NCBI GenBank assembly: GCA_051294375.1
Contig: CM119271.1
Location: forward strand, 6,112,875-6,176,874
Length of the DNA stretch: 64,000 nucleotides
Direction of reading: 5' to 3'
Source: Paraspadella gotoi
Lineage: Eukaryota > Animalia > Chaetognatha
In this document: positions 53,501 through 59,500 of the stretch, piece after piece
Layout of the letters: each line of letters opens with the position of its first letter
Position numbering within the stretch: position 1 is the first letter of the stretch
Made by a program: the position numbers and the translations under genes
The notes under the pieces: generated by a model
Databases searched by the model: none
What the model saw: only the letters and a program-made list of their open reading frames with translations
Told to the model about the DNA's origin: nothing

Positions 53501-56500
53501 NNNNNNNNNNNNNNNNNNNNNNNNNNNNNNNNNNNNNNNNNNNNNNNNNNNNNNNNNNNNNNNNNNNNNNNNNNNNNNNNNNNNNNNNNNNNNNNNNNNN
53601 NNNNNNNNNNNNNNNNNNNNNNNNNNNNNNNNNNNNNNNNNNNNNNNNNNNNNNNGAGGAGGACGAAGAGGAGGAGGAGGAAGAGGCGCTAAAGTTGTAG
53701 CCGTCCAACCCTTGGGTCCTCACGGTGAGGACTTTGCTAAAGTTTCCCTTGGCTCGCGGGTTTTCCGCCAAAAGGCTGAACTCGTAGGTCGAGTCGGNNN
53801 NNNNNNNNNNNNNNNNNNNNNNNNNNNNNNNNNNNNNNNNNNNNNNNNNNNNNNNNNNNNNNNNNNNNNNNNNNNNNNNNNNNNNNNNNNNNNNNNNNNN
53901 NNNNNNNNNNNNNNNNNNNNNNNNNNNNNNNNNNNNNNNNNNNNNNNNNNNNNNNNNNNNNNNNNNNNNNNNNNNNNNNNNNNNNNNNNNNNNNNNNNNN
54001 NNNNNNNNNAAGATATTAAAAAAAAAAATGTTTTAAACTGACTAAAACTTATGTAGACGGTGAACGGTTTAAGTAATGAAGGCTACATTTGGAGAGAGAG
54101 AGAGAGAGAGAGAGAGAGAGAGAGAGAGGGTGATTAACGTAATTATTTACTCTCTGATAAAAATTATATTTACCGGGTGGAACCATAAATATCCGGACTT
54201 GAAAATTAGTCCGATCTTATTTCCACGATTTTCAAAATTTGACTTTTTGTATTGTATTTTGTATATATATAATGTAGAGCGCAATGATTGACTAACTCCT
54301 CCCACCTTTGGCGCTCCCGGCGTTTCCGCCAACTCTCTTGTACCACACGACGTAGTACTGGGGCAGACCGGCGTAGTAGGCGGGCAGCCACGAGAGGGTA
54401 GCGCCGAAGAGTCCCGCCTCCACGGAGACCTTAACGGGCGGGTGACGGGCCGACGTTTCCACGAAGAGACGAGTCGACGCCGTCAGCGTCATCACCGCCG
54501 AAGAGACGACGCATTCGTAGACGCCAGCGTCCTCTGGGCGGAGATCCTTGCGGGAAGATGGAGAGATAAATGAATTATGGATTTTTTAAATTGATTATTG
54601 ATATTGCACGAGGTTTTTTTTTATTTTGGGGGGGGGTCTTTAGGTCTAAAGCGAAGATAACTGAGGCAGAGTGAGTGAGAGAGAGAGAGAGAGGGAGGGA
54701 GACAGAGAGATGAAGAGAAAGAGAGAAAGTTATTCTGTAGTTTCAATGGAAGAAAATTATTATTATTATCATTACTGATTTATTTAATTTAAATCCATCT
54801 ATTCGTCCCCTCCCTCACCGAAATGGTGAGGTTGCCCTTGTCGGAGTTTTGCGCCCGTCCTCTGGGCATGTGGCACGGCGCCGCGTCGGAAGGAGCGCCG
54901 GGAAGAAGGGCGCCGGAGGGAAGGCGGAATCCTTCGTCGACGCCGGCCGGAGGTTTGATGGGGCATTCTATCTTGCGCCAAGTGACGGCGGGCGAAGGGG
55001 AACCCGAAGCGGAACAGGGAATTGATATGGATTTCTTGTTCATCGCTTGATAGTAGGGGCGGGGCTTGATCACGAACTGAGGGGGTGTAGGGAAAGAGGG
55101 GTGGAGGGATGGAGAAGTGACAGGGTGAAAGGAGCGTAGGGAAGGTTAATTTTTTTTTCTCAGGCCTCTGTTTTTTCTTATATTCTTTATTTACTTTTCC
55201 TTTCCTTTCCTTTCCTTTCCTTTCCTTTCCTTTCCTTTCCTTTCCTTTCCTTTCCTTTCCTCTCCCTCTCTTTTTTTTCCTTTCCTTTCTTTATTCTTCC
55301 CGATTTTTTCTTTTTTTCATCACTTCTCTCCTTTTTTTCCCCCTAATTTCCTTTCATTTCATTTCATTTTTTTTCCTATTCTTAATTTTCTTACACTTTT
55401 ATTTTCATTCTTTTTTCCCTCTTACTTCCTTTCCTTTCCTTATCCTTTCCTTTCCTTCCCTTTCTCCTTCTTTTTTTCCAATTTCTTTCTTTTTCCTTCC
55501 TTCTCTTTCCCCTTTCCAAATCCCTTACCCTATCTAACCCCCCCCCCGCTGCCACCCCCCGACCTTCTCACCTTGGGAATCTCCCGAACCTTCACCTCCG
55601 TCGTTTTGTTTTTCAACGAAATTCCCAAAACGTTTTTCGTTCGGCAAGAATATTTCCCCTCGTCTTCGTCCTCCACCCTTGAGATGACGAGGCTCTGTCC
55701 GTCCTTGGGGTTGAGTGAGAACCGGGGGTTTGACCTGGGTAAAGAGAGACGGGGGTCGGAGGGGTGTTGAGTGAGAACGCGGGGGTTTGACCTGGGTAAG
55801 AGAGAGACGGGGGCGAAGGGGTTGTTTGAAGTGAGAAGCTGGGGGTTTGACCTGGGTAAAGAAGAGACCAGGGGCTGAGGGGTGTTGAGTGAGAACCGGG
55901 GTTTGAACCGTGGGTAAAGAGAGAGAGGGGCGGAGGGGTGTTGAGTGAGAACCGGGAGTTTGAACCTGGTAAAGAGAGACAGGGCGGAGGGGGTTGAAGT
56001 GGAGAACCGGGGGTTGACCTGGGTAAGAGAGAGGAGGCGGCAGGGCGTGTTGACGTGAGAACCGCGCGGGGTTTGACCTGGGTAAAGCAGAACAGCGGGC
56101 GGAGGGGAGCTTGAGTGATAACCGGGGGTTTGAACCTGGGTAAAGAGAGACAGGGAATCGGACGGGGTGTTGAGGGCATGAGAACGTGATGTTCACTTGG
56201 CCAGGTTTGCCTTGGCTCACACAGAGAGACAAGGGACGGAGGGGTATTGACGTGACGAACCGGGGTTCTTGCCACCTGGGTACAGAGAGTAACAGGGGCG
56301 AGGGGATTGAAGTGAGAACCAGGGGTTTCGACCATGGGTAAGAGAGACAGGGGCGGAGGGTGTTGAGTGAGAAACGCGGGGGGTTTGACTGGGTAAAGAG
56401 AGAACCAGGGGCGGAGGAAGTTGAGTGAGAACGCGGGGGTTTGACCTGGGTAAGCAGAGAGACAGGGCGCGGAGGGGGAGTGTGAGTGAGAACCGGGGGG

Positions 56501-59500
56501 TTTGACCGCTGGGGTAAGAGAGACAGGGCAGGAGCGGCGAGCTTGAGTGAGACACGCCGTTGGTCTTGACCTGGGTAAAGAGAGACAGCGGACGGAAGGG
56601 TGTTGAGTGAGAATACCCGGGCCGGGGTTTGACCTGGGTAAAGAGAAACAGGCAGGCCGGAGGGTATTCCGAGTGGCAAACCGCGGGGTTTGAACCTGGT
56701 CGAAACTGGCGGTAAACGAGAGACAGGAGGGGCGACACGGGGTGTTGAGTGACGAACCGGGGCTTTGACCTGGGTTACCAGGAAGAGACAGGGCGGCGAA
56801 AGGGGTGTTGAGTGAGAACCGGGGGTTTGACCCGCTCGGGTAAAGAGAGACAACGAGGGGCGGCAGGGGTGTTGATGGGAAACCGGGGGTTTAAAGACGG
56901 GGTAAAAAATGAAAAAAAATTTCTTTTTCCTAAATGTGCCCCATTAAAAAAGCTTAGCGGCACTTGAAAACATCTAATTTTTCAAAAAGCCAGAAAACAT
57001 GGAACATATTCAGCTTTAATTTAAAAATTTTTAATAAAACAGTATTTTATTTTTATAAAACTAAAAGTTATTTCGTCGCTTGAAGGCATCTGAAGATGGT
57101 TTGTTAAAAGCATGTTTAAAAAATTACTCTTAACTATCCAATCTTCATTTGAATAAAGTTGGCTTTGACAACGAAACGGGGAAAATTTTAAACTAGCCAT
57201 TTCTGTTTTAAAAGTAAGTTATGTTTGATAGCATTTGGTATATTTCGCGTCCCACGAATGTCCAGCGCGAGTTGTGCGGACGAGAAGAACGACCAGGACA
57301 GGAAATCAAGTAATGGTGACAAAAGGGAGGAGTTAAAAATATTCCGTTGTGGCCGATACGGTCTCGCATGGCGGGGAACGGTTAAATGTACGAAGACGCC
57401 GATGGCGAAGGCATATTGGGAATTGGCATAATGGCATATGGCATATGGGAATGGGGCGACGAAGGGGANNNNNNNNNNNNNNNNNNNNNNNNNTTCCTCG
57501 TCATTTGTTTTACATCGTTGCCGTCCCGCAACGGCGCAGAAATCCAGGGTCAATAAGTTATTCTTCAACATTTTCTAAAATCCCGAAAATCTCAGATGTA
57601 ATTTGGGATTTTGTATTGAGAAAGAAGCCGCCGGCAATAAATGGCGATAATAAAAGTTTTTAGAAGGAAGAAAAATAATAAGAAATTTTTCAAAAAACGG
57701 TGGTAAACACAAGTGGAATAGAGTTTTTTTTTTTGTAAAAAGAGAGAGAGAGAGAGAGAGAGAGAGAGAGAGAGACGAGAGAGACGGAGGGAGGACGGAG
57801 AGAGAGAGAGAGAGCGATAGAACTCGTTTTTTTTTAAACCGATTCAGAAAGGACGCGCCTGATCAAATATATATGTTTTTTAGTAAAGAAAAAATAATCA
57901 GTAACTTTTTTGCAAAAACGAACATCACGCAAGAGATCGCACTACAAAGAGAGACAGAGAGAAACTGAACTGTTTTTAAACGATTCAGAAAAGGCAGCGC
58001 CTAAAAATATATATAAATTAAAAATAGAATAAAAGAAAGGCAAAAAATGTTACAATGGTTTTACAATTGGATAACTTTTCATTTTTTACAATCGCAGCTT
58101 GTAAAAGATTTTATTTTTATTGTATTAAAATTAAGATATAGCTTTCTCATTAAAAAATCGCTTTGAGTTCCCATTTTTATTAGAAATTTAAAAAAAATTT
58201 TGAATTTGCATCTTCAATATTATATAGCTGCAATATGTAGAATTAGGCTTTTAAGCTATTTCTATATACTAATTTGGATATTATAATCAGTATCTATAAT
58301 CTGCATTTGCATATTGCAGTAAATCATAATGGAAGTGGAAATTTCAAACAAAAATACTTAAAATCCAAAATGTAATGAAGAAAGTATCAAAGCTATTTCA
58401 GTTGAGAAAAGCCATATCTAATTTTTTAACTTACTATGATCGGCACACTTTTGGTAAAACTTAAAATAGATATTAATATATATTATATTAAAAACGGTAA
58501 GTGACAGGCCAAACCTATAAAAGCGTAGTAGTCTTTTTATTTAAAACAGCGTGACGGCCGACGACGAACGAACGAGCGAACGACTTTTCACAAAGTAGCT
58601 CACCCGAATCAATATAAGCCTGAACCGGCTTCGCCGGTCATGGCTTGAATAAATAATTATCTTAACTATAATCTTATTTGAATAAGTTGCTTTGACAAAC
58701 GGGGAAATTTTTAAACTAGCCATTTGTTTTAAAAAGTAAGTTATGTTTGATAGCATTTGGTATTTGCCGTCCCACGAATGTAGCGCGAGTTGTGGGGAGA
58801 GAACGACGCAGGTACAGGAAATCAAGAATGTGAAAAAGGGAGGAGTTAAAATTCCGTTGTGGCCGATACCGGTCTCCATGGCGACGTTAATTACGAGACC
58901 CGAGGGAAGCATATGGAAATGGCGACGAAGGGGGAAAAAATCTCCAGACGATTCGAAGCCAAAAATTTGGATCGTTGAAATTTCCTCGTTTCTGTCACGT
59001 CCCGCACATTCATTTTCCAGTTACATTTGGTTTCGCTGTTACGTGCATTTTATTCGGCGCTCAAAAAAAAAAAAAAAATGGTTTCTTCAATGATGAAAAC
59101 AAACCGGAAGTTGGAAACTTGAGAAATACATGGAAAAAGAAGAAATTGTGTTTTTGAAAAGAAAAAAAAAAAAATCTTTTGACAAAAAGTTTGGCAGGGG
59201 AAAAAAAAATAACCATAGCGTGTTGACGGAGAAACGGATGGATGACATAAGAGTGACAAGAATCTATTTTGGGTACCATTTTCCTTAAACGCCCCTTTTC
59301 GAATCTCAAAACCCTAAGTAATCCCTAATCGAATCTCTAACCAAATGCTTAACCAAATTCTTTATTTAAACTTAATTCCAAACTTTAAACAGAAAACTAA
59401 TTCTGGTATGGAACGCCTTTGAAAAAAATGGCCTCTGAATGTCAACGAAATTGTAATTTTGTCATCGAGCGACAGATGGCGACAACATTAACTTTTTTTT

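What the first reader, a model, noticed from the sequence alone, without database searches (positions are those of the whole stretch)
55572..56900. Tandem array of about 21 duplicated splice acceptors plus exon starts in an Ig-domain exon
Seen: each ~55-bp unit on the gene strand is a polypyrimidine tract, then CCCAG|GTCAAA, then the first ~25 nt of the exon (SNPRFSLN). Only the last copy continues into PKDGQSLVISRVEDEDEGKYSC. The consensus has no stop codon in any frame, and three units (165 nt) restore the frame. Inference: the spliceosome faces about 21 near-equivalent 3' splice sites, with three possible outcomes. (a) Every third acceptor could give receptor isoforms with variable Pro/Ser/Thr-rich inserts. 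(b) The AG|GT sites could act as recursive-splicing ratchet points; a GTCAA donor appears to be used at ~26859 in this genome. (c) This could be a snapshot of intron gain by AGGT tandem duplication. A VNTR here could tune expression of a neural adhesion molecule.
Basis: partly seen in the sequence, partly recalled or inferred. Interest (0 to 1): 0.75.

Follow-up and report, generated by a model that had tools for sequence, protein, structure and literature searches.

The report
Splice-acceptor "mirage" repeat, adhesion gene
An animal cell-adhesion gene carries about 19 head-to-tail copies of one intron end plus the first 24 bases of the next exon; the repeat is real, but it is a known kind ("mirage") that is likely spliced out with the intron rather than making new protein forms.

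Summary
The array is real. The window holds 19 full 55-bp units plus one partial (55711-56897, minus strand), not 21; each is 31 nt of intron end plus 24 nt of an Ig I-set exon. Most unit-to-unit differences are raw long-read errors (13% insertions, as in the flank). Contigs of 4 of 4 public runs hold the 55-bp unit joined to itself, at about 8-30 times single-copy depth in the three DNA runs. This is an acceptor-type 'mirage' minisatellite, described in amphioxus (PMC3087553), with human parallels (F7, CBS); the scan noted the same design in other genomes (8 listed). No RNA junction was seen, so the splicing outcome is inferred: mainly the exon-adjacent acceptor. Stop-free frames are common by chance (40-90% of shuffles), AG|GT starts 4 of 14 inferred exons here, and two of every three upstream acceptors would frameshift. 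As assembled, the upstream exon is out of frame by one base, probably an error. One twist stays open: splicing to any copy would rebuild a donor of ordinary strength for this genome, allowing self-correcting re-splicing.

The parts
55711..56897 (-). 55-bp minisatellite: 19 full units (31 nt intron end with C/T tract and CAG, 24 nt exon start) and one 5' partial unit; the last unit overlaps the true exon
   Evidence: unit joined to itself in contigs of 4 of 4 runs
55735..55736 (-). AG of the exon-adjacent acceptor, inferred to be the one mainly used
   Evidence: sequence; only copy followed by the unique exon; use not shown by RNA
55572..55734 (-). 163-nt exon, second half of an Ig I-set domain; its first 24 nt are the exon part of the unit
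   Evidence: PF07679 E 9e-6; its first residues align with Robo, Lar and neurofascin Ig domains
60983..61090 (-). upstream exon, first half of the same Ig domain; 108 nt as assembled, probably one base too many near 61004-61005; donor CAG|GTTCGT at 60982
   Evidence: contigs of two other samples each differ from the window by 3 letters and 6 gap letters over 60914-61120, places not shown
56898..57468 (-). raw long-read intron flank; 57117-57373 duplicates accurate sequence at 58650-58883 with insertion-rich errors
57469..57493 (.). 25-N join between the accurate contig and the long-read fill
   Evidence: reading it as an over-filled-gap marker is recalled
57510..58677 (.). high-copy repeat in the intron, present in the accurate contig but not in the long-read copy (likely two haplotypes)
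   Evidence: summed contig depth 10^2-10^5 in all four runs; the two copies part after the shared stretch
62119..62228 (-). earlier Ig exon of the same gene
54819..55076 (-). next Ig exon, with a long loop insertion
54313..54546 (-). exon ending the last Ig domain and starting an FN3-like domain (3' end not fixed; N gap follows)
44088..45719 (-). two exons (45719-45587, 44296-44088) of an FN3 domain; their intron has the same AG|GT ends and phase 2 as the array's intron
   Evidence: PF00041 E 1e-4 on the second exon
39716..39876 (-). exon with a hydrophobic, likely transmembrane stretch; short tail exons follow (39123-39057, 38794 onward)
   Evidence: open frame across the inferred joins

Best explanation
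A 55-bp piece spanning the intron end and exon start of an Ig/FN3 membrane-protein gene is tandemly repeated about 19 times, and the spliceosome likely uses mainly the last, exon-adjacent acceptor, so the repeat would leave with the intron and the protein would be normal. It is an acceptor-type 'mirage' minisatellite. Shown: the array, its 55-nt unit, the exon origin of 24 of its bases, its presence in independent samples. Inferred: origin by local duplication, then growth and turnover by unequal exchange or slippage (perhaps helped by four G-runs per unit on the template strand); preference for the last acceptor because only it gives a normal 163-nt exon with the downstream donor; loss of the two-in-three frameshifted products by nonsense-mediated decay; little or no function.
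For: Unit anatomy and count. Self-joining 85-nt contigs in 4 of 4 runs, 3 studies; unit variants in contigs match variants in single window units. Unit depth over median single-copy depth is 7.6, 29.5 and 17.6 in X1, X5, X6, the scale of one locus, perhaps variable (single-copy contigs hand-picked, 14 of the 24 listed for these runs). The exon part is native Ig sequence. No sign of design: stop-free in 40-90% of shuffles; repeat RNA folding not beyond shuffles (-15.1 vs -12.7 +/- 5.8 kcal/mol); AG|GT at 4 of 14 inferred exon starts. Precedent: amphioxus BflGb6 has tandem copies of an intron 3' end plus exon start, 6 and 3 units in two haplotypes, and RT-PCR suggests regular splicing (PMC3087553, passages; PMC3902484, passage). 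In human CBS 844ins68 the duplicated upstream piece is spliced out and normal mRNA results (PMC2630376, passages).
Against: No spliced junction was seen for this gene; the exon's unique part had no contig in any of 4 runs. The one RNA-guessed run (X9) holds unit-to-unit joins at depth 3-4, which could be DNA, pre-mRNA or retained units. Donor-side arrays in human 6-16 and CBS do use two extra sites (PMC1557585, passages), so leakage into the nearest copies is plausible. The rebuilt donor CAG|GTCAAA matches U1 at 6 of 9 places, inside the 5-8 range of 12 inferred donors here. The normal frame needs a one-base error in the upstream exon that I could not place directly.
Confidence: 0.75

Rival explanations
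1. Self-correcting recursive ladder: the upstream exon is often spliced first to an early copy, which rebuilds CAG|GTCAAA as a donor, and a second splice to the last acceptor gives the normal mRNA.
For: Upstream exon ends in CAG and each unit's exon part starts GT. Rebuilt donor matches U1 at 6 of 9, like the inferred real donors (5-8 of 9, n=12); 2 of those 12 have C at +3. Each unit has a branch-point-like motif 33-37 nt before the next AG and no other AG. Ratchet points are defined as AG|GT zero-length exons (10.1101/2020.11.05.367888, passages).
Against: No intermediate seen. AG|GT is common at ordinary acceptors here (3 of 13 others). Recursive splicing is described for long introns; this one is about 5.2 kb as assembled. 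A one-unit step (55 nt) is shorter than the shortest inferred introns (87-88 nt). The U1 count is crude.
Confidence: 0.1
2. Isoform generator: acceptors 3, 6, 9... units upstream are used on purpose and add 55-residue Pro/Ser/Thr-rich loops inside an Ig domain.
For: k=3 and k=6 keep an open frame. Contig units are all 55 nt. The next Ig domain of this gene carries a long natural loop insertion. X9 holds unit joins.
Against: Two of three acceptors frameshift; a unit length divisible by 3 would be expected under selection for inserts. Stop-free frames are ordinary. With two units inserted the best domain score against stored Ig proteins falls to 19 bits from 34. No mechanism to count to three.
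Confidence: 0.05
3. Leaky dosage tuner: the nearest upstream copies take a sizeable share of splices, the products are degraded, and array length or unit variants set the mRNA level.
For: k=1 and k=2 give premature stops. Depth ratios differ among samples. Human donor-side arrays use up to two extra sites.
Against: No expression data. The neighbourhood of the last acceptor is the same whatever the length. Depth ratios from contigs are rough.
Confidence: 0.07
4. The upstream exon is truly 108 nt, so this allele is frameshifted or must use the acceptor two units upstream (or an unseen microexon).
For: As assembled, joining to the last acceptor runs out of frame, while joining two units upstream is open.
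Against: Dropping one base at 61004-61005 gives the best score of the 28 deletion readings scored (34.0 bits; next 33.1, so margins are small) and a W-x-K-[DN]-G motif found 720 times among 1788 W-x-K sites in 150 stored proteins, against 1 for the as-assembled reading. Two other samples differ from the window by the same 6 gap letters in this 200-bp stretch.
Confidence: 0.03

Closest known systems
Amphioxus 'mirage' minisatellites: globin BflGb6 (acceptor type), BflGb9, Adh3, troponin C, PGBD5 (PMC3087553 and PMC3902484; passages read)
   Same: Head-to-tail copies of an intron 3' end plus exon start, placed in the intron before the true exon; many units keep splice signals; unit length within the reported 10-160 bp; apparent length differences; divergent edge unit.
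   Different: 19 copies against 3-6 in BflGb6; a different animal and gene; every unit has AG directly followed by GT; splicing outcome not measured here.
Human donor-side VNTRs: F7 IVS7 37 bp, IFI6/6-16, CBS IVS13, LMNB2, PDGF (PMC1557585; abstract and passages read)
   Same: A minisatellite whose edge unit spans an exon-intron boundary, giving 5-25 identical sites; the exon-adjacent site is used alone or mostly.
   Different: They repeat the donor; this repeats the acceptor.
Human CBS 844ins68 (PMC2630376; passages read)
   Same: Duplication of an intron/exon junction at the acceptor side; the extra upstream piece is spliced out and mRNA is normal.
   Different: One extra copy of 68 bp, not an array.
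Drosophila recursive splicing ratchet points (10.1101/2020.11.05.367888; passages read)
   Same: Juxtaposed AG|GT that would act as a zero-length exon.
   Different: Those subdivide long introns and have read support; here sites are 55 nt apart, copied from the terminal acceptor, and unsupported.
Intron gain by tandem genomic duplication (PMC3443670; passages read)
   Same: Duplicated AGGT offers a donor and an acceptor with precise excision.
   Different: The model duplicates an exonic segment; here the acceptor already existed and no exon lies between AG and GT, so no new intron is made.
IGSF9 / turtle / borderless adhesion proteins (recalled, from no call)
   Same: Ig domains, FN3 domains, one membrane span, short tail.
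   Different: Orthology untested: two homolog searches found nothing and the N-terminal exons lie outside the window.

Membership tests
Mirage minisatellite (acceptor type) | Tandem repeat whose unit spans an intron-exon boundary of the host gene | tested here: met
   31 nt intron + 24 nt exon; last unit runs into the Ig exon
Mirage minisatellite (acceptor type) | Real genomic array, not an assembly artefact | tested here: met
   self-joining 55-nt unit in contigs of 4 of 4 runs, 3 studies
Mirage minisatellite (acceptor type) | Units keep splice signals | tested here: met
   CAG|GT in the consensus and in contigs; exact CAGGT in 13 of 19 noisy window units
Mirage minisatellite (acceptor type) | Length instability between alleles | tested here: inconclusive
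   depth ratios 7.6, 29.5, 17.6 and different main unit variants among runs; contig depth is a rough guide
Mirage minisatellite (acceptor type) | Regular mRNA splicing is not disturbed | tested here: inconclusive
   no contig covered the unique exon or a splice junction
Recursive (ratchet-point) splicing | Juxtaposed AG|GT with polypyrimidine tract | tested here: met
Recursive (ratchet-point) splicing | Rebuilt donor of usable strength | tested here: inconclusive
   6 of 9 U1 matches vs 5-8 for 12 inferred donors; crude score
Recursive (ratchet-point) splicing | Intermediates or lariats in nascent RNA | not testable with these tools
   only contigs were offered; no raw RNA reads
Intron gain by tandem genomic duplication | Duplicated segment is exonic and yields a new intron between two exon parts | tested here: not met
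   segment contains the existing acceptor; GT follows AG directly, so no exon is left between introns
Immunoglobulin superfamily Ig/FN3 membrane protein | I-set domains, FN3 domain, hydrophobic span | tested here: met
IGSF9/turtle/borderless | Orthology by sequence or tree | tested here: inconclusive
   no close relative found; label is recalled

The most novel reading that the evidence does not exclude
The array is a self-correcting recursive-splicing ladder born from one duplication: because the upstream exon ends in CAG and each copy starts GT, a splice to any of the 18 wrong acceptors rebuilds a donor and is re-spliced to the true one. The last acceptor's branch point would even come from the exon-derived part of the copy before it. 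That would explain how such an array is tolerated and show ratchet points arising from mirage repeats.
Probability: 0.1. Interest if true: 0.65.

Novelty: new member of a known kind. Interest (0 to 1): 0.2.

Why it matters
As an ordinary mirage it adds one more animal example to a class already described, and is a natural test case for how one of 19 near-identical acceptors is chosen. If re-splicing were shown, it would give a direct route from a tandem duplication to recursive splice sites and a reason why AG|GT mirages are tolerated.

Tried and rejected
No whole genome is held, so other copies of the unit elsewhere could not be searched directly; within the window self-BLAST finds it only here. 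No RNA holder listed; the guessed-RNA run X9 gave no splice junction, and no run covered the unique exon: not evidence either way. Homolog searches with two exons found nothing at threshold (33 and 52 candidates); the library search gave only generic multi-Ig proteins; the ARL6IP1-like neighbour's 7 hits bore no names, so the animal group is not established. The Atlas could not read the exon. A Cell 2023 paper on VNTRs and splicing was not held and a search for it found 0 papers; searches gave no acceptor-array paper, while 33, 42 and 58 gave those cited. PMC10078293 (passages) added nothing specific. Rejected: assembly artefact; stop-free frames as a sign of selection; RNA structure hiding acceptors; AG|GT as a special feature; other GTs in the unit as donors of 12- or 39-nt mini-exons (4 of 9 U1 matches by my hand count). 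My first UPF0489 model used a wrong third donor and was out of frame; corrected. No supplements were read; those of PMC3087553 hold the BflGb6 unit alignments.
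Full report
Observation. On the minus strand, 55711-56897 is a tandem array. A wrap-around alignment gives 19 full units and one partial 5' unit, with a 55-nt consensus of 31 nt intron end and 24 nt exon start. 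The unit has one AG, followed directly by GT. The last unit runs into a 163-nt exon (55734-55572) that encodes half of an Ig I-set domain (PF07679, E 9e-6); its first residues align with Ig domains of Robo, Lar and neurofascin, so the exon part of the unit is native coding sequence and the repeat arose here. Self-BLAST finds the unit nowhere else in the window.

Sequence quality. The 19 full units differ from the consensus by 136 insertions, 20 deletions and 32 mismatches in 1045 positions (partial unit left out). The flank next to a 25-N run repeats accurate sequence from 58650-58883 with 41 insertions, 4 deletions and 4 mismatches. Both fit an uncorrected long read used to fill a gap (error pattern and 25-N marker recalled). 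So unit lengths and most differences in the window are noise; the true array on that molecule is about 1.07 kb.

Is it real? Yes. Laid on 55540-55900, 4 of 4 runs from 3 studies gave 85-nt contigs made of the 55-nt unit joined to itself. Some variants in contigs match single window units (for example the unit at 56246), so part of the variation is real. Unit depth was 105, 298 and 206 in X1, X5, X6; against 14 hand-picked near-exact intron contigs, of 24 listed for these runs, the ratios are 7.6, 29.5 and 17.6, with ranges 4.9-8.6, 20-33 and 11-29. That is the scale of one locus and hints at length variation; contig depth is a poor measure, and X1 may be the assembled sample.

Host gene. Exons found by frame and motif give Ig domains, FN3, a hydrophobic span and a short tail. 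It resembles IGSF9/turtle/borderless from memory; searches found no close relative. As assembled, the upstream exon (108 nt, donor CAG|GTTCGT) is out of frame with the last acceptor. Removing one base at 61004-61005 gives the best of 28 readings scored, by a small margin, and a W-x-K-[DN]-G motif seen at 720 of 1788 W-x-K sites in 150 stored proteins, against 1 for the assembled reading. Contigs of X5 and X6 both differ from the window by 3 letters and 6 gap letters over 60914-61120, places not shown. An assembly error is likely, not proven.

Splicing outcomes (computed with that correction). The last acceptor gives the normal frame. One, two, four or five units upstream give premature stops; three or six give open frames with 55 or 110 extra residues inside the Ig domain. 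Stop-free frames occur in 40% of unit shuffles and 90% of intron-part shuffles, so they say nothing about selection. The repeat RNA folds no better than shuffles. Branch-point-like motifs lie 33-37 nt before each AG, in the exon-derived part of the previous unit. AG|GT starts 4 of 14 inferred exons in two genes of this window, the array's own included. The donor that a splice to any unit would rebuild, CAG|GTCAAA, matches U1 at 6 of 9 places; 12 inferred donors score 5-8, two with C at +3. The template strand has four G-runs per unit (loops up to 12, none under the 7-nt rule), a possible aid to instability.

RNA. None decisive. No RNA holder was listed. The guessed-RNA run X9 holds unit-to-unit joins at depth 3-4 and many intronic repeats, and no junction; DNA, pre-mRNA and retained units cannot be told apart.

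Known cases. Amphioxus 'mirages' are tandem copies of intron-exon boundaries; BflGb6 repeats an intron 3' end plus exon start, with 6 and 3 units in two haplotypes, RT-PCR suggests regular splicing, and intron gain from them is offered as a hypothesis (PMC3087553, passages; PMC3902484, one passage). I was led to these papers by earlier notes of this scan (10 findings in at least 9 genomes, 8 shown), then read the passages myself. Human F7, 6-16, CBS, LMNB2 and PDGF arrays are the donor-side mirror; the exon-adjacent site is used alone or with the next two (PMC1557585, abstract and passages). CBS 844ins68 is a single acceptor-side duplication with normal mRNA (PMC2630376, passages). Intron gain by AGGT duplication concerns exonic segments (PMC3443670, passages). 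Ratchet points are AG|GT zero-length exons in long introns (10.1101/2020.11.05.367888, passages).

Verdict. A real acceptor-type mirage of about 19 copies, likely spliced out with the intron (0.75). The self-correcting recursive reading is not excluded (0.1) and is the part worth testing; I found no paper on it in the searches, which cover only the open library. Interest 0.2; new member of a known kind.

Noticed in passing
window 57510-58677 and 59554-60137: High-copy repeats inside the intron (summed depth up to 10^5). The first is in the accurate contig but not in the long-read copy of the same intron: likely a presence/absence allele, with both haplotypes written in series around the 25-N run.
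   Followed up: partly
window 54819-55076 (-): The next Ig domain has a loop roughly 30 residues longer than usual, flanked by two extra cysteines.
   Followed up: no
window 25846-27605 (+): Five-exon UPF0489 (C5orf22-like) gene; two of its four inferred donors have C at +3 (GTCGGG, GTCAAT); introns of 87-147 nt.
   Followed up: partly
window 22251-25754 (+): A 1168-codon open frame with a Sec39 domain (NBAS-like; E 6e-30), unusually long for one exon.
   Followed up: no
window 27750-28349 (+): Intronless 200-aa ARL6IP1/reticulon-like gene; 7 unnamed relatives at 47-53% identity.
   Followed up: partly
window 19597-19838, 32642-32909, 40960-41226: Three copies of a ~260-bp dispersed repeat, 88-97% alike; likely a SINE or MITE.
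   Followed up: no
window about 33240-35350 (+): Coding-looking stretch that by eye recalls the SMP domain of TEX2 (recalled, not searched).
   Followed up: no
window 56246 unit: One unit appears to carry AAG instead of CAG at the acceptor; an X1 contig at single-copy depth (12.4) or its loose end shows a similar variant.
   Followed up: partly
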